Shown here piece by piece: positions 24,610-48,791 of a stretch of 64,000 nucleotides of DNA (positions are counted from its first letter, which is position 1; each line of letters starts with the position of its first letter). The stretch covers positions 47 through 64,046 of the forward strand of contig DAOWEO010000008.1 of assembly GCA_030638415.1 (NCBI GenBank), given 5' to 3'. The notes below the pieces were generated by a model. That model was not told the DNA's origin. It saw only the letters and a list, made by a program, of their open reading frames with translations, and searched no databases. Source of the stretch: Bdellovibrionales bacterium (GTDB lineage Bacteria > Bdellovibrionota > Bacteriovoracia > Bacteriovoracales > Bacteriovoracaceae). The translations under genes were made by a program, and so were the position numbers.

Positions 24610-24686
24610 TGGGGTGGATGAAGGGGCTCGAACCCTCGACAAATAGAATCACAATCTACTGCTCTACCAACTGAACTACACCCACC
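24610..24686 (-). tRNA. tRNA-His (anticodon GTG), CCA encoded
   Basis: The reverse complement GGTGGGTGTAGTTCAGTTGGTAGAGCAGTAGATTGTGATTCTATTTGTCGAGGGTTCGAGCCCCTTCATCCACCCCA folds as a cloverleaf. It has a G-1 extra base, anticodon loop TTGTGAT and T-loop GGTTCGAGCC. Confidence 0.93.
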
Positions 24687-46293: not shown

Positions 46294-47055
46294 TTATTTA
46301 GATTGTAGTTTTAAATTTTCTTTTGCCATGGATAAGATAATAGAGTGAAACCAGTTTGGTTGATCTTTTAATATTTTTTTGATTCTAGAAACAGGTACAA
46401 TTGAAAGGACAGAGGGTTCAAGTGCAACGGCATAAACAGGAGATGGTAGTGAGGTGATTGCAGCAGCAGTACCTATTATTTCTCCAGGATTAAAAGATTC
46501 AATATCCTTATCATTTTTGTCACGTAGAACAATATGGCCCTCTTTTAGCAGATACATATTATCTAATATCGCTTCAACTTCAAACATTCGTTGATCTTTT
46601 TTTAAGATTATAGAAGTCGTTGTAGCATCTTTTTTAATATTTTTTACTACTTTTTTTTCACTAGCGACTTGTGATTTCTCTAATGTTATTTTGACTTGCT
46701 CAATTAGAGCCTCAGAGCTAAATGGTTTTTCTAATACAGGTATTTTTCCCTTGGTACATATTTCCTTCGCTAGTGGAGTAACCTCACCTGTAATAATAAT
46801 TATTGGTGGAAGCTTTTTTCCAAACATAATCCGATCTTTAGAAATATTATTTAGAAATGTTATCCCATTTTGTTTGGGCATATTTAGATCAGATATAATC
46901 AAATCAAATTCTTGGTTTTTAACCTTTAGAGTTCCCATTAAACCATCTGCTGCAAGAACTGTTTTATAACCTTCACATTCAAGAATATCTTTCATTAATT
47001 CCAAGATATCGGGATCATCATCAACCAGTAAAATACTTTGTGCACTATTGTTCAT
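46294..47055 (-). CDS. Response regulator: REC domain fused to a cyclic-nucleotide-binding-like domain
   Basis: LLVDDDPDIL...DLIISDLNMPKQNG...K (REC). The C-terminal LLKEGHIVL...FNPGEIIGTAA pattern resembles a cNMP-binding beta-roll. Confidence 0.7.
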   Translation of the reverse strand: MNNSAQSILLVDDDPDILELMKDILECEGYKTVLAADGLMGTLKVKNQEFDLIISDLNMPKQNGITFLNNISKDRIMFGKKLPPIIIITGEVTPLAKEICTKGKIPVLEKPFSSEALIEQVKITLEKSQVASEKKVVKNIKKDATTTSIILKKDQRMFEVEAILDNMYLLKEGHIVLRDKNDKDIESFNPGEIIGTAAAITSLPSPVYAVALEPSVLSIVPVSRIKKILKDQPNWFHSIILSMAKENLKLQSK

Positions 47056-47135: not shown

Positions 47136-47945
47136 TCAGTAAGTAATTAAAAAATTAAACCCTGAATGACGCATCTTGTTTAGCAATACTTTGTGGCCGG
47201 CAGCTGTGACAAGAGTTGTACCGATGCTCCAAAGTATTATTGTTGTAAAAAAGATAGAAAATGATCCAGAATAAGTCCCAGTTAGGAGTATATGGCGCAC
47301 TTGTTCTAATTCAAATGTTAGTGGAGAGATGCTATTAGAAAGATTTTGTAGAATAGGGGGTAGAACTGCTATTGGAAAAAATGAACCAGCAAGAAAGGAT
47401 CCTAATGTATTTAGATACCCTAAAAAAGACTCCCCTCGTCCAATATATAAAATTATCAGTGAAAAAAGGATACCAAGGTTAACAAAAGGTATAATAAAAA
47501 TAATCTCAAATAGTATGGCCTTAAGTATATTTAAGGGGCTGCTGGGGAAATCAAATAGTATCATAGCTATAGAAAGTGTAATGATCGTTCTAATGATGTC
47601 TCTAATTAGGCCTCCGGTTCCCAGTACAAATAAAATTTTTAATATAGATACTGGTAGAGAAAGCATTAATTGAAAGCTTCCATCATGAACACTGAGTTTT
47701 ATCTTTCTAACAAAAGTACTAACGAAGTATAAAGGTAGTGATAGAAAGAGATCACCAACTAGAATATAACTAAAGTAACTCTGATTAAGGTGAGCATCTA
47801 CAGAGGCTGAAAAAGCTTTAGAGGTAAACCAATATATAAGTAGTGTTCCTAGAATTGCTATAATTTCACTTACAATTGTAAATAAGTGGTAATAACTGTT
47901 TTTATAATCAAGTTTGATCATTGATAATATGAGTCTAGCTAACAA
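47136..47945 (-). CDS. ABC-2-type transporter permease
   Basis: 269 aa with ~6 TM segments. It overlaps the upstream ATPase gene by 11 nt. Confidence 0.7.
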   Translation of the reverse strand: MLARLILSMIKLDYKNSYYHLFTIVSEIIAILGTLLIYWFTSKAFSASVDAHLNQSYFSYILVGDLFLSLPLYFVSTFVRKIKLSVHDGSFQLMLSLPVSILKILFVLGTGGLIRDIIRTIITLSIAMILFDFPSSPLNILKAILFEIIFIIPFVNLGILFSLIILYIGRGESFLGYLNTLGSFLAGSFFPIAVLPPILQNLSNSISPLTFELEQVRHILLTGTYSGSFSIFFTTIILWSIGTTLVTAAGHKVLLNKMRHSGFNFLITY

Positions 47946-48570
47946 GATTTCCTCCTGATAGATTCCATGTGGAAAATGTACTTAGGGAGTTAGTCATGTT
48001 TCGATGAGAGCTGAGTATAATCGTAGAATTTAAAAAAATTGTATTTAATAGCAGTGCTAACTCTACTTCTGTTTGTTGGTCAATATTTTCGAAGAGTTCA
48101 TCAATTAATAAAATATCTGGAGAATGGAGTGTTAGAATAAAAAATATTGCTAGTTTTTTCATACCTGTTGAGCACTTGTAAAATGGTTTCTCTAGTGACA
48201 GTTGAAAGGGGGCAATATCTGACCATTGTAGGTATTTAGTTTGAACTGCTGGACTTGCGAGTGACATCGTATTTGCAAAAAAAGAAATATTTTCTCTAAC
48301 TGTAAGCCTAGGAAATAGTCCATTACTTTGAGATGGAATGTAGGATAACTTTTTTTTGACCTGCTTATAATAAGGAGGTTGCCCTGTGATAAGAACTTGC
48401 CCTTTTTGTGGCACTAGTAATCCAGCTATTATCTTAAGTAAAGTTGTCTTGCCCACTCCATTATTACCATATAATAAATAATGCTGCCCCTGACGTATAT
48501 TTATGTTTATCTCATTGAAAAGAGGTTCATTATCAGTGAAAGAATGAGATATCTTTTTTAGTTCGATCAT
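47935..48570 (-). CDS. ABC transporter ATP-binding protein
   Basis: Walker A GNNGVGKTT, degenerate signature CSTGMKK, Walker B ILLIDELFENID. Confidence 0.85.
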   Translation of the reverse strand: MIELKKISHSFTDNEPLFNEININIRQGQHYLLYGNNGVGKTTLLKIIAGLLVPQKGQVLITGQPPYYKQVKKKLSYIPSQSNGLFPRLTVRENISFFANTMSLASPAVQTKYLQWSDIAPFQLSLEKPFYKCSTGMKKLAIFFILTLHSPDILLIDELFENIDQQTEVELALLLNTIFLNSTIILSSHRNMTNSLSTFSTWNLSGGNLVS

Positions 48571-48578
48571 TCCTTCTA

Positions 48579-48587
48579 TGGTATAAT
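48579..48587 (+). promoter_or_regulatory. Candidate extended -10 promoter (TGGTATAAT) for the peptide/kinase operon
   Basis: TGnTATAAT match in the 46-bp divergent gap, 29 nt before ATG 48617. GAGGAAG lies at 48608-48614. Confidence 0.4.
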
Positions 48588-48616
48588 AGGTAATGATAAA
48601 TTAACAGTGAGGAAGA

Positions 48617-48791
48617 GATGTCTGATACAGAAATTGATAAAAAAGAAAATATAGATCAAAAAAAAGAGTATATTAAGCCTGAGATAAAATCTGAAGATCT
48701 TGTCTCTTTTGGTGCTCTTTGTAATGGCACTGAAATTGGAGGCCGAAAGGCGGCTGTTCCAGTTTGTAACACAAGAAAAATTAATTCATAA
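48617..48791 (+). CDS. Candidate RiPP precursor peptide, interrupted by an A9 tract (57 aa if read as A8)
   Basis: ATG 48617 with a good SD opens MSDTEIDKKENIDQKKRVY*, with its stop at 48674. The +1 frame is open over 48654-48788 and encodes ..EYIKPEIKSEDLVSFGALCNGTEIGGRKAAVPVCNTRKINS*. That frame has no ATG/GTG/TTG and ends 2 nt before the kinase GTG. The frames switch at A9 (48657-48665). Confidence 0.4.

What the first reader, a model, noticed from the sequence alone, without database searches (positions are those of the whole stretch)
48617..48791. Candidate precursor peptide ending in Ser, with two Cys and a Gly-Gly, in the first operon position
Seen in sequence: this is the only small coding frame between the promoter gap and the kinase. 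Read through the A-tract as A8, it gives MSDTEIDKKENIDQKKEYIKPEIKSEDLVSFGALCNGTEIGGRKAAVPVCNTRKINS (57 aa). It has a charged, Lys/Glu-rich N-terminal half, which is leader-like. It has a Gly-Gly at residues 41-42 followed by the basic 15-mer RKAAVPVCNTRKINS, Cys at 35 and 50, and a C-terminal Ser. Its stop (48789-48791) is 2 nt before the kinase GTG, which has no SD of its own. That implies termination-reinitiation coupling, and hence that this frame is translated. Established knowledge: lasso-associated HprK-like kinases phosphorylate the C-terminal Ser of their precursor, and rSAM/SPASM enzymes commonly act on Cys. Inference: this peptide is the substrate, with Ser57 as the tailoring site and Cys35/Cys50 as crosslink donors.
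Basis: partly seen in the sequence, partly recalled or inferred. Interest (0 to 1): 0.8.

Follow-up and report, generated by a model that had tools for sequence, protein, structure and literature searches.

The report
Conserved precursor peptide of uncharacterised RiPP
The 57-codon frame is a real, translated precursor peptide of an undescribed family of ribosomal natural products from predatory bacteria, which pairs a radical-SAM enzyme with the kinase and sugar-adding enzyme otherwise known from phosphorylated lasso peptides.

Summary
It has its own SD and an extended -10, and it stops 2 nt before the kinase GTG.

The same small gene sits directly upstream of the orthologous kinase in seven further loci whose kinases are only 25-53% identical. 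dN/dS is 0.06-0.22 with synonymous sites saturated.

A profile search found about 250 relatives at 90% identity clustering (67 clusters at 50%). All are unannotated, and every named source is Bdellovibrionota. Among 184 peptides:
- 181 end in Ser or Thr;
- 181 of 183 have exactly two Cys;
- a lasso-like Y-x-K-P-x-I leader motif and a CNG...GGRK block are nearly invariant.

The cluster encodes an HprK/ScmC-like kinase whose catalytic core matches the lasso kinase BsfK, an NTP_transf_5 enzyme, two PqqD proteins, a SipW-like Ser/His peptidase, one rSAM/SPASM enzyme and an ABC-2 exporter. There is no lasso cyclase.

Best reading: this is a RiPP precursor. Ser57 phosphorylation, with possible glycosylation, and Cys-based rSAM crosslinks are well-motivated inferences but remain untested. 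The Gly-Gly is part of the conserved core, not a classical double-glycine cleavage site.

Verdict: a new variant of a known kind.

The parts
48579..48587 (+). Extended -10 promoter element TGGTATAAT for the peptide-kinase transcript
   Evidence: Read directly from the sequence. Similar GGTATAAT / GGTACAAT elements lie about 20 nt upstream of the peptide ORF in L012 and L013/L014. The tool's two-hexamer scan did not list it because there is no good -35. Promoter function is inferred.
48609..48615 (+). Shine-Dalgarno-like GAGGAAG of the peptide ORF
   Evidence: Sequence. L001/L011 have GAGAGGAA in the same place.
48618..48791 (+). Precursor peptide gene (57 aa plus stop)
   Evidence: ORF listing. 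Homologues lie at syntenic loci. The profile search found 248 hits. dN/dS is 0.06-0.22.
48618..48659 (+). Variable Lys/Glu-rich N-terminal part of the leader (residues 1-14)
   Evidence: The length before the Tyr varies from 7 to 56 residues, with 30% Lys, across the family.
48660..48701 (+). Conserved leader motif KK-x-Y-x-K-P-x-I-x-S-E-x-L (residues 15-28), a candidate PqqD/RRE-binding site
   Evidence: Y18 and P21 are invariant; K15, K20, E26 and L28 are at least 90% conserved. The motif resembles the lasso leader YxxPxL at -17..-12 and the BsfA leader ...KLIYKKPQL.... Binding itself is inferred.
48711..48788 (+). Conserved core region G32-S57: GA-x-CNG-x3-GGRK-...-C-N-x-x-[RK]-[LI]-N-S
   Evidence: Column statistics over 181-184 family members.
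48720..48722 (+). Cys35 codon (first invariant Cys, in the CNG motif)
   Evidence: Invariant in A3. It lies 17 residues after the Tyr in 152 of 183 peptides.
48738..48749 (+). Gly41-Gly42-Arg43-Lys44 (GGRK block)
   Evidence: GGRK occurs in 134 of 181; variants are GNRK, AGRK and GQRK. It is embedded in the conserved core and is not a leader boundary.
48765..48767 (+). Cys50 codon (second invariant Cys, fixed 7 residues before the C-terminus)
   Evidence: Cys at C-terminus minus 7 in 163 of 181 peptides.
48786..48788 (+). Ser57 codon, the C-terminal residue and candidate phosphorylation site
   Evidence: The C-terminal residue is S in 161, T in 20 and other in 3 of 184. Analogous peptides in Deltaproteobacteria and Acidobacteria loci also end in Ser.
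48794..49696 (+). HprK/ScmC-like P-loop kinase (300 aa, GTG start, translationally coupled to the peptide)
   Evidence: Weak TIGR04249 ScmC and PEPCK_ATP hits; precomputed PF27840 ScmC. Invariant H150, G166-x-S-G-A-G-K172-T and D187-D188. hhalign to BsfK gives 97.6%. The AF2 model has pLDDT 91 and a PEPCK/HprK fold.
49693..49953 (+). PqqD-family protein 1, kinase-adjacent RRE candidate (the longest ORF starts at TTG 49669)
   Evidence: PF05402, E 7.7e-11. It is orthologous to L001 1291-1551. A kinase+PqqD fusion, P0012, exists.
49950..50396 (+). S24/S26-like (SipW/Sec11-type, Ser/His) peptidase, the candidate leader peptidase
   Evidence: TIGR02228 sigpep_I_arch, E 1e-5, below its cut-off. Invariant GxSM, HR and GD motifs across 7 homologues. 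Peptidase_S24 marks in related loci. An S24+kinase fusion, P0030, exists.
50335..51261 (-). NTP_transf_5 'uncharacterised nucleotidyltransferase' (308 aa), opposite strand
   Evidence: PF14907, E 1e-27. It is present in all 9 distinct related loci examined. A GS...DxD motif is read directly from the sequence.
51279..51554 (+). PqqD-family protein 2, rSAM-adjacent RRE candidate
   Evidence: PF05402, E 9e-14. This is the PqqD copy kept in all related loci.
51544..52581 (+). Radical SAM / SPASM peptide maturase (345 aa)
   Evidence: PF04055 plus PF13186. No NCBIfam model reaches its cut-off. The nearest solved relatives are PqqE, MoaA, SkfB and SuiB. CxxxCxxC and 7 C-terminal Cys are read from the sequence.
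47935..48570 (-). ABC transporter ATPase (divergent), candidate exporter subunit; no peptidase domain
   Evidence: PF00005 only. It is conserved next to the cluster in L002, L011-L017.
47136..47945 (-). ABC-2 type permease
   Evidence: PF01061 at E 2.4e-5, just below the gathering score. ABC2_membrane is marked in related loci.

Best explanation
The frame encodes the precursor peptide of an uncharacterised RiPP pathway found mainly in Bdellovibrionota.

**Shown**
- It is a protein-coding gene under strong purifying selection.
- It sits immediately upstream of, and is tightly coupled to, an HprK/ScmC-like kinase gene.
- It lies within a conserved cassette: kinase, PqqD, SipW-like peptidase, NTP_transf_5, PqqD, rSAM/SPASM and an ABC-2 exporter.
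- Its conserved features are a K-rich N-terminus, a Y-x-K-P-x-I-x-S-E-x-L motif, two invariant Cys, a CNG...GGRK block, and a C-N-x-x-[RK]-L-x-[S/T] tail ending the protein.

**Inferred mechanism**
1. The PqqD proteins bind the lasso-like YxKPxI leader motif and present the peptide to the enzymes.
2. The kinase phosphorylates the hydroxyl of the C-terminal Ser57 on the full-length precursor.
3. The NTP_transf_5 enzyme may add a sugar or a nucleotide-derived group to that phosphate, as PsmN does.
4. The rSAM/SPASM enzyme makes one or two crosslinks involving Cys35 and Cys50, most probably thioethers.
5. The Ser/His signal-peptidase-like enzyme removes the leader. The best fit to a -3/-1 small-residue rule is S30-F-G32|A33, which would give a 25-residue core, ALCNGTEIGGRKAAVPVCNTRKINS.
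6. The ABC-2 transporter exports the product.
For: **Coding and translated.** The small ORF is conserved upstream of the kinase in L001/L002/L011, L012, L013/L014, L015 and L017, although the kinases are only 25-53% identical. dN/dS is 0.06-0.22 with pS of 0.62-1.0. The gap between peptide stop and kinase start is 1-15 nt.

**Family size and features.** There are 248 hits at 90% clustering and 67 clusters at 50%. Conserved features are:
- C-terminal residue S 161, T 20, other 3;
- two Cys in 181 of 183;
- Tyr to Cys1 distance of 17 in 152;
- Cys2 at C-terminus minus 7 in 163 of 181.

**Kinase.** The motif H...GxSGAGKT...DD is invariant. It corresponds to the experimentally essential H148/G163/K169/S170/D186/D187 of BsfK. 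hhalign gives 97.6% probability, E 2.7e-12. The structure shows a PEPCK/HprK fold.

**Precedent.** PadeK and PsmK phosphorylate the C-terminal Ser, and the 'uncharacterised nucleotidyltransferase' PsmN is required for hexose addition to the phosphate. The RRE BsfB1 strongly stimulates BsfK.

**Functional linkage.** Kinase+PqqD and S24+kinase fusion proteins exist. NTP_transf_5 is present in all 9 distinct loci examined.

**Independent lineages.** Deltaproteobacteria L009 and Acidobacteria L010 have different Cys-rich peptides with a K-x-Y-x-x-P leader. Both end in Ser and lie between an rSAM/SPASM gene and an HprK-like kinase gene.

**Peptidase.** The GxSM, HR and GD catalytic motifs are invariant. 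Residues at Cys1-5 (S/T/A/G in 158 of 183) and Cys1-3 (G/A in 176 of 183) are small.
Against: No biochemical or expression data exist for any member.

- The kinase falls below the cut-offs of all named kinase families (ScmC 23 bits against 125; no Hpr_kinase_C hit). Its best structural matches are PEPCK, with HprK/P only at rank 50.
- The closest characterised homologue compared here, BsfK, phosphorylates Ser3 rather than a C-terminal Ser. The site is therefore not fixed by homology.
- Other fairly conserved hydroxyl residues exist: S25, T38 and the Ser after GGRKA.
- The rSAM matches no characterised maturase above its cut-off, so thioether chemistry is a guess. Its second-best hit is MftC, which acts on a C-terminal residue, so the C-terminal Ser could be an rSAM requirement instead.
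- The core is unusually conserved for an antimicrobial RiPP.
- The proposed cleavage site is inferred only from residue sizes.
Confidence: 0.7

Rival explanations
1. The peptide is a real RiPP precursor, but the invariant C-terminal Ser/Thr is required by the rSAM/SPASM enzyme (MftC-like chemistry on the C-terminal residue) or by the NTP_transf_5 enzyme (direct O-nucleotidylylation). The kinase then phosphorylates another residue, such as T38 or S25, or a non-peptide substrate.
For: MftC is the second-best NCBIfam hit of the rSAM (112 bits). BsfK shows that HprK-like RiPP kinases can target internal Ser. T/S at Cys1+3 is 82% conserved, and S/T after GGRKA is 78% conserved.
Against: The MftC score is far below its cut-off of 265, and the tail is not the mycofactocin-precursor C-terminus as I recall it (GVY). 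Internal hydroxyl positions tolerate Met and Ala, whereas the C-terminus is S/T in 98%. The kinase plus NTP_transf_5 pair is exactly the pair that acts on a C-terminal Ser in pseudomycoidin.
Confidence: 0.2
2. It is a double-glycine-leader bacteriocin. The leader is cut after Gly41-Gly42 and the mature product is the basic 15-mer RKAAVPVCNTRKINS.
For: GG is present and at least 90% conserved. The peptide downstream of it is basic. An ABC transporter is adjacent.
Against: - The transporter ATPase is 211 aa with only an ABC_tran domain and a separate ABC-2 permease; it has no C39 peptidase.
- Conservation is continuous from Y18 through GG, and includes the invariant Cys35-Asn-Gly upstream of GG.
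- GG is replaced by GN, GQ, AG or GS in about 10% of members while RK is kept.
- The dedicated protease in the cluster is signal-peptidase-like.
Confidence: 0.05
3. The frame is a regulatory upstream ORF or leader peptide. Its translation, rather than its product, controls expression of the kinase operon.
For: It is the first and shortest ORF, is tightly coupled to the next gene, and contains an A8 tract.
Against: The amino-acid sequence is conserved across lineages whose synonymous sites are saturated. Specific residues (2 Cys, terminal Ser) are invariant in more than 180 sequences. The A-tract is not conserved. In L016 the peptide gene is separated from the kinase by a giant gene yet is retained.
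Confidence: 0.03
4. It is a small unmodified Cys-containing protein, for example a metal- or redox-binding peptide or a partner or inhibitor of the neighbouring giant C25 proteases. In this reading it merely shares an operon with the enzymes.
For: The core is unusually conserved for a RiPP. Giant Peptidase_C25 genes adjoin the peptide in 5 related loci.
Against: Two PqqD RRE proteins, an rSAM/SPASM enzyme, a peptidase and an exporter have no evident role without a peptide substrate. A lasso-like RRE motif is present in the leader. There is no C25 gene in this window.
Confidence: 0.05

Closest known systems
Phosphorylated lasso peptides (paeninodin PadeA/PadeK; pseudomycoidin PsmA/PsmK/PsmN; Bradymonas BsfA/BsfK/BsfB1)
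   Same: - A precursor with a K-rich leader carrying Y-x-x-P-x-[L/I].
- Discrete PqqD RRE proteins.
- An HprK-like kinase with the same H...GxxGxGK[ST]...DD catalytic motif.
- An 'uncharacterised nucleotidyltransferase' partner.
- A precursor ending in Ser, as in PadeA and PsmA.
- An ABC exporter.
   Different: - There is no lasso cyclase (Asn-synthetase-like C protein) and no transglutaminase-like B2 protease.
- Instead the cluster has an rSAM/SPASM enzyme and a signal-peptidase-like Ser/His protease.
- The core has two invariant Cys.
- The kinase belongs to the ScmC-like branch, not to the Hpr_kinase_C Pfam family.
SynChlorMet cassette (NCBIfam ScmC / ScmD / ScmE / ScmF), a system defined only by comparative genomics
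   Same: The architecture: an ScmC-like P-loop protein, a PqqD relative and rSAM/SPASM. Weak hits to TIGR04249, TIGR04248, TIGR04250 and TIGR04251, and precomputed PF27840 ScmC.
   Different: All scores are far below the equivalog cut-offs: 23 against 125, 29 against 100, and 92 against 400. There is one rSAM rather than two. The cluster additionally has NTP_transf_5, an S24-like peptidase and a clearly identified precursor. No paper in the library mentions the cassette.
Sactipeptides / ranthipeptides (rSAM-SPASM thioether RiPPs; SkfB, AlbA, PapB, CteB)
   Same: An rSAM with a full SPASM domain, RRE-dependent recognition, and Cys residues in the core. SkfB is among the nearest solved relatives.
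   Different: There are only two Cys. No characterised maturase model reaches its cut-off. Kinase and nucleotidyltransferase tailoring and an invariant C-terminal Ser are not features of those classes. The crosslink chemistry here is unknown.
Mycofactocin / PQQ (PqqD plus rSAM-SPASM acting on a short conserved peptide)
   Same: A discrete PqqD plus rSAM/SPASM, a strongly conserved short precursor with a conserved C-terminal residue, and MftC and PqqE among the best hits.
   Different: Scores are below the cut-offs. The C-terminus is [RK]-L-N-S, not the mycofactocin-precursor C-terminus as I recall it (GVY). No mycofactocin or PQQ model reached its cut-off for any cluster protein. An exporter and a kinase are present.

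Membership tests
Lasso peptide BGC | Lasso cyclase (Asn-synthetase-like C protein) | tested here: not met
   No cluster protein, and none of the 10 other neighbouring or large window ORFs scanned (253-729 aa), has an Asn_synthase domain. None is called in the 8 related loci.
Lasso peptide BGC | Transglutaminase-like B2 leader peptidase | tested here: not met
   The only protease in the cluster is S24/S26-like.
Lasso peptide BGC | PqqD-type RRE (B1) and a leader YxxPxL motif | tested here: met
   There are two PF05402 proteins. hhalign of BsfB1 against the PqqD alignment gives 98%. The leader motif Y18-I-K-P-E-I23 matches, with Y and P invariant.
HprK-like RiPP precursor kinases (PadeK/PsmK/BsfK) | Catalytic motif His ... 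GxxGxGK[S/T] ... DD | tested here: met
   H150, G166-Y-S-G-A-G-K172-T173 and D187-D188 are invariant in 29 homologues. They align to the BsfK core at 97.6% probability. The motif's importance is shown.
HprK-like RiPP precursor kinases (PadeK/PsmK/BsfK) | Match to the Pfam/NCBIfam HPr kinase models | tested here: not met
   No Hpr_kinase_C or TIGR00679 hit at E<=0.01; only PEPCK_ATP and ScmC hits, both weak. HprK/P 1knx is only rank 50 in the fold search.
HprK-like RiPP precursor kinases (PadeK/PsmK/BsfK) | Phosphorylates a Ser of the cognate precursor (the C-terminal Ser for PadeK and PsmK) | not testable with these tools
   There is indirect support only: a C-terminal S/T in 181 of 184 family members.
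SynChlorMet cassette | ScmC, ScmD, ScmE and ScmF equivalog scores above the curated cut-offs; two rSAM/SPASM proteins | tested here: not met
   ScmC 23.4 against 125, ScmD 29.2 against 100, ScmF 91.9 against 400, ScmE 71.8 against 400. There is a single rSAM.
Double-glycine-leader (class II) bacteriocin | C39 peptidase-domain ABC transporter, and GG at the leader/core junction | tested here: not met
   The ATPase is 211 aa with ABC_tran only. Conservation, including an invariant Cys, extends across the GG.
Sactipeptide / ranthipeptide | rSAM with a SPASM domain, plus Cys-containing core | tested here: met
   PF04055 plus PF13186. There are two invariant Cys.
Sactipeptide / ranthipeptide | Cys-S to C-alpha/beta/gamma thioether crosslinks in the product | not testable with these tools
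   This requires MS/NMR of the modified peptide. No characterised maturase model reaches its cut-off.
Mycofactocin | MftC equivalog score, and the mycofactocin-precursor C-terminus as I recall it (GVY) | tested here: not met
   MftC scores 111.9 against 265. The tail is RKINS.

The most novel reading that the evidence does not exclude
The family defines a new RiPP class characteristic of predatory Bdellovibrionota. In it, a short and highly conserved core is crosslinked by a dedicated rSAM/SPASM enzyme through its two invariant Cys, and carries a phospho- or glycophospho-ester on its C-terminal Ser/Thr. This would be the first use of the lasso-type kinase/nucleotidyltransferase tailoring pair outside lasso peptides. 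The unusually conserved core, and the frequent neighbouring giant C25 proteases, would point to a conserved physiological role such as a signal, a cofactor or a predation factor, rather than a variable bacteriocin.
Probability: 0.35. Interest if true: 0.75.

Novelty: new variant of a known kind. Interest (0 to 1): 0.6.

Why it matters
- **A missing substrate.** It supplies the substrate for a widespread but unstudied cassette of an ScmC/HprK-like kinase, PqqD and rSAM-SPASM. No paper in the searched library names one.
- **Reach of the tailoring pair.** It suggests that C-terminal Ser phosphorylation, with or without glycosylation, is a portable RiPP tailoring module that is not restricted to lasso peptides.
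- **A tractable target.** It points to a natural-product family of about 250 sequence clusters confined largely to predatory bacteria. The targets are short, easy to synthesise and directly testable by heterologous co-expression.
- **Possible function.** The strong conservation of the core hints at a function other than a variable antimicrobial.

Tried and rejected
1. **Genome-contig scan with the kinase alignment.** Only one close locus came back (L005, truncated at the kinase start). Of the five distant loci, three (L007, L009, L010) were later useful.
2. **Pfam and NCBIfam on the peptide.** No family was found.
3. **Literature searches.** The terms tried were 'SynChlorMet', 'HPr kinase + radical SAM + PqqD + nucleotidyltransferase', 'HprK + SPASM + RiPP', 'PF14907' and 'Bdellovibrio + RiPP + radical SAM'. 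None found a description of this cassette.
4. **Cluster look-up for organism names.** It returned no names, so the source organism of the window remains unidentified. It is inferred to be Bdellovibrionota from homologues only.
5. **Rfam on the whole window.** The only hit was a tRNA at 24613-24685, with nothing in the region of interest.
6. **Double-glycine leader reading.** Rejected for the reasons given under the rival explanations.
7. **Lasso peptide reading.** Rejected because there is no cyclase and no B2 protease.
8. **PDB sequence search with the NTP_transf_5 protein.** No hit.
9. **Fold assignment of the kinase.** PEPCK ranks above HprK/P, so 'HprK-like' is justified by the catalytic motif and the BsfK profile match, not by the top structural hit.
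Full report
**1. Observation**

The window has an ATG-initiated ORF at 48618-48791 on the + strand. It is 57 codons long and ends in TAA at 48789-48791. Everything else in the description is exact:
- the translation;
- the A8 tract (GAT CAA AAA AAA GAG);
- Cys35 and Cys50;
- Gly41-Gly42;
- the C-terminal Ser57;
- a 2-nt gap to the GTG of the next gene at 48794, which has no properly spaced Shine-Dalgarno sequence.

The peptide ORF has its own GAGGAAG 4 nt upstream of the ATG. It also has TGGTATAAT, an extended -10, at 48579-48587. Both lie in a 47-nt gap that separates it from a divergently transcribed ABC ATPase gene. Rfam finds no RNA family here.

**2. Surroundings**

The genes downstream, in order, are as follows.

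| Coordinates | Strand | Product |
|---|---|---|
| 48794-49696 | + | P-loop kinase-like protein |
| 49693-49953 | + | PqqD protein |
| 49950-50396 | + | S24/S26-like peptidase |
| 50335-51261 | - | PF14907 NTP_transf_5 'uncharacterised nucleotidyltransferase' |
| 51279-51554 | + | second PqqD protein |
| 51544-52581 | + | radical SAM/SPASM enzyme |

- Upstream and divergent are an ABC ATPase (47935-48570) and an ABC-2 permease (47136-47945).
- The 'operon' is therefore interrupted. The peptide heads the first + strand unit, made up of peptide, kinase, PqqD and peptidase.
- No lasso cyclase or transglutaminase-like protease was found among the cluster proteins or the ten other neighbouring or large window ORFs scanned (253-729 aa).

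**3. Is the frame a gene?**

- **First search.** A search with the peptide alone found one 59-aa relative. It lies at fully syntenic metagenomic loci.
- **Wider synteny.** Kinase homologues (117 hits, all 'hypothetical') were traced to their contigs. A small called gene lies 1-15 nt upstream of the kinase in L001/L002/L011, L012, L013/L014, L015 and L017. These kinases are only 25-53% identical to the window's.
- **The exception.** In L016 no small gene lies next to the kinase. The family member P0154 carries locus tag GY909_03235 against the kinase's GY909_03245, so it appears to lie beyond the giant protease gene. Its position was not seen directly.
- **Shared pattern.** All the peptides share KK-x-Y-x-K-P-x-I-x-S-E-x-L-x-x-[FY]-G-A-x-C-N-G-x3-G-G-R-K-...-C-...-[RK]-[LI]-x-S.
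- **Selection.** Over the gap-free conserved codons, synonymous differences are saturated (pS 0.62-1.0) while pN is 0.11-0.35. That gives dN/dS of 0.06-0.22 wherever it could be computed.

Together with the tight coupling to the kinase start, this is strong comparative evidence for translation.

**4. Family**

A profile of six peptides retrieved 248 clusters at 90% identity. The top 120 are all 50-99 aa with E<=1e-19. An exhaustive HMMER scan of 1.84 billion representatives found 67 clusters at 50% identity.

None of the 120 listed hits has a Pfam domain on record, the window peptide matches no Pfam or NCBIfam model, and every source name is 'hypothetical protein'. Every named source is Bdellovibrionota: Bacteriovorax, Halobacteriovorax, Bdellovibrio, Pseudobdellovibrionaceae, Bacteriovoracaceae or Oligoflexia.

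Statistics over 184 members:

| Feature | Count |
|---|---|
| C-terminal residue | Ser 161, Thr 20, other 3 |
| Exactly two Cys after the Tyr | 181 of 183 |
| Tyr to Cys1 distance of 17 | 152 of 183 |
| Cys2 exactly 7 residues from the end | 163 of 181 |
| GGRK block | 134 of 181 (variants GNRK, AGRK, GQRK) |
| Tail consensus | C-N-[AS]-x-[RK]-L-[NLK]-[ST] |
| Segment before the Tyr | 7-56 residues, 30% Lys |

The window peptide and L001 belong to a minority subtype with a Cys1-Cys2 spacing of 15 instead of 18.

**5. The enzymes**

*Kinase*
- H150, G166-x-S-G-A-G-K172-T and D187-D188 are invariant in 29 homologues.
- The characterised lasso-precursor kinase BsfK has the essential motif H148-G163-G166-G168-K169-S170-D186-D187 (PMC10368454).
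- BsfK's sequence, taken from that paper, aligns to the kinase-family profile across exactly this core. hhalign gives 97.6% probability and E 2.7e-12.
- An AF2 model (pLDDT 91) matches ATP-dependent PEPCKs best (E about 1e-8). HprK/P 1knx is at rank 50 (E 7e-5). This places the protein in the PEPCK/HprK P-loop superfamily.
- NCBIfam gives only a weak ScmC hit, 23 bits against a cut-off of 125. The precomputed Pfam label is PF27840 ScmC.

*PqqD proteins and fusions*
- The PqqD proteins align to the lasso RRE BsfB1 at 98% probability.
- Fusion proteins exist: kinase+PqqD (P0012) and S24-peptidase+kinase (P0030). They tie these activities together functionally.

*Peptidase*
- Its GxSM, HR and GD motifs are invariant across 7 homologues.
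- Its best model hit is archaeal/SipW-type signal peptidase I, below that model's cut-off.
- It is therefore probably a Ser/His endopeptidase.

*Radical SAM enzyme*
- It has CxxxCxxC and a seven-Cys SPASM region.
- It reaches no characterised maturase's cut-off. The best hits are AhbD, MftC, NirJ2, ScmF and PqqE.
- The nearest solved relatives are PqqE, MoaA, SkfB and SuiB.

*NTP_transf_5*
- It is present in all nine distinct loci examined.

**6. Literature precedent**

- In pseudomycoidin, the HprK-family kinase PsmK adds one to three phosphates to the C-terminal Ser. PsmN, 'a family of uncharacterized nucleotidyltransferases', is required for adding hexose(s) to that phosphate. PadeK does the same kinase step in paeninodin (PMC6993621).
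- Lasso kinases act on the full precursor before leader removal. The PqqD RRE BsfB1 strongly stimulates BsfK. Lasso leaders carry YxxPxL at positions -17 to -12 (PMC10368454).
- The BsfA leader is ...KKAKNKISRKLIYKKPQL.... The leader here...KKEYIKPEI..., resembles it.
- That PsmN is a PF14907 member is my inference from the matching family description. It was not tested.

**7. Mechanism proposed**

Shown:
- The frame is a translated, conserved small gene embedded in this cassette.
- It has a conserved leader motif, two Cys and a terminal Ser/Thr.

Inferred:
1. PqqD binds the Y-x-K-P-x-I segment.
2. The kinase phosphorylates Ser57. The Ser/Thr interchange at the extreme C-terminus argues that the hydroxyl is what matters, and a conserved [RK]-L-x-S tail is a plausible recognition element.
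3. NTP_transf_5 further decorates the phosphate.
4. The rSAM/SPASM enzyme crosslinks through Cys35 and Cys50.
5. The signal-peptidase-like enzyme removes the leader. Residues at Cys1-5 (S/T/A/G in 158 of 183) and Cys1-3 (G/A in 176 of 183) fit a small -3/-1 rule for cleavage at S30-F-G32|A33.
6. The ABC-2 system exports the product.

Support from independent lineages: a Deltaproteobacteria locus (L009) encodes MSDRKKTGEAKRKYVKPCLSKIQVKLDESILVACKGVGHSGSRSPCESCGTPGS. An Acidobacteria locus (L010) encodes ...ERKPYEAPQIVRVSLRPDEAVLGHCKIPGASGPTTGSCSSLFCRTLGS. Both are K-x-Y-x-x-P-leader, Cys-rich peptides that end in Ser. Both lie between an rSAM/SPASM gene and an HprK-like kinase gene.

**8. What is not supported**

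- The Gly-Gly is not a classical double-glycine processing site. The transporter has no C39 peptidase domain. Conservation runs continuously across the GG and includes the invariant Cys35 upstream. The GG is substitutable while RK is retained.
- The cluster is not a lasso BGC, because it has no cyclase and no B2 protease.
- It is not a SynChlorMet cassette in the NCBIfam sense, because all scores are far below the cut-offs and there is only one rSAM.
- It is not a mycofactocin system.
- The phosphorylation site is not fixed by homology, since BsfK targets Ser3. The rSAM chemistry is unknown.

**9. Novelty and score**

I found no protein-family model and no paper describing this precursor family or this enzyme combination. 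Each component type is known, and the overall logic is standard: a leader peptide, RRE proteins, an rSAM, tailoring enzymes, a protease and an exporter.

I therefore rate it a new variant of a known kind. It is an rSAM/SPASM RiPP that has adopted the lasso-type C-terminal kinase/nucleotidyltransferase tailoring pair, and it is largely restricted to predatory bacteria.

Interest is 0.6. It is a concrete, easily testable lead for RiPP enzymology and for Bdellovibrionota biology, but it is not a conceptual surprise.

Noticed in passing
L012:1-5154, L013:1-6838, L014:1-5097, L016:1-6967, L017:1-4371: Giant Peptidase_C25 (gingipain-like) proteins of about 1,700-3,300 aa lie immediately next to the peptide or cluster in 5 related loci. 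In L016 the giant gene appears, from locus-tag order, to lie between the peptide gene (P0154, GY909_03235) and the kinase (GY909_03245). No such gene is in this window. A possible functional link (substrate, regulator or inhibitor?) is unexplained.
   Followed up: partly
L009:9444-9608 and L010:9397-9591: Deltaproteobacteria and Acidobacteria MAG loci carry unrelated-looking Cys-rich peptides with a K-x-Y-x-x-P leader and a C-terminal Gly-Ser. They lie between an rSAM/SPASM gene (preceded by a PqqD gene) and an HprK-like kinase gene. This suggests a much wider superfamily of 'terminal-Ser' rSAM RiPPs.
   Followed up: partly
L007:9845-11267: A Clostridia MAG has a trio of kinase-like protein, PqqD and S24-like peptidase, with no rSAM in the ORFs listed within 6 kb either side. 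The kinase/PqqD/peptidase module may therefore be portable between RiPP types. No precursor was identified there.
   Followed up: no
window 48765-48779 (Cys50-Asn-Thr-Arg-Lys); family consensus C-N-[AS]-x-[RK]: The context of the second Cys resembles the C-x-[PA]-x-R motif that, from memory, anaerobic sulfatase-maturing rSAM/SPASM enzymes recognise. It may be coincidence. It would predict formylglycine formation rather than a thioether.
   Followed up: no
window 48669-48722: The distance from the leader Tyr to the first Cys is 17 residues in 152 of 183 family members. This is the same as the Tyr(-17)-to-core(+1) distance in lasso leaders, which hints that the RRE positions Cys35 or its neighbourhood at an active site.
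   Followed up: partly
window 50335-50396: The NTP_transf_5 gene is on the opposite strand and its 3' end overlaps the 3' end of the peptidase gene by 62 nt. This convergent overlap is conserved in L001 and L011-L015. In L017 the gene lies upstream on the same strand as the kinase; in L016 it is on the opposite strand but downstream of the rSAM and peptidase genes.
   Followed up: partly
window 53504-55480 and 52589-53230: Two proteins with N-terminal hydrophobic, signal-peptide-like starts (658 aa on the + strand, 213 aa on the - strand) lie just downstream of the rSAM gene and have no Pfam or NCBIfam hit. L011 has an unannotated 697-aa gene in the same position, and flanking synteny continues there (Cons_hypoth698, alpha-amylase). 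They are therefore probably neighbours rather than cluster members.
   Followed up: partly
window 46294-47055 (-): A response regulator with a cNMP-binding domain lies next to the ABC-2 permease. It is conserved in that position in L002 and L011, and could be a regulator of the cluster.
   Followed up: no
window 24613-24685 (-): A single tRNA gene is the only Rfam match in the 64-kb window.
   Followed up: no
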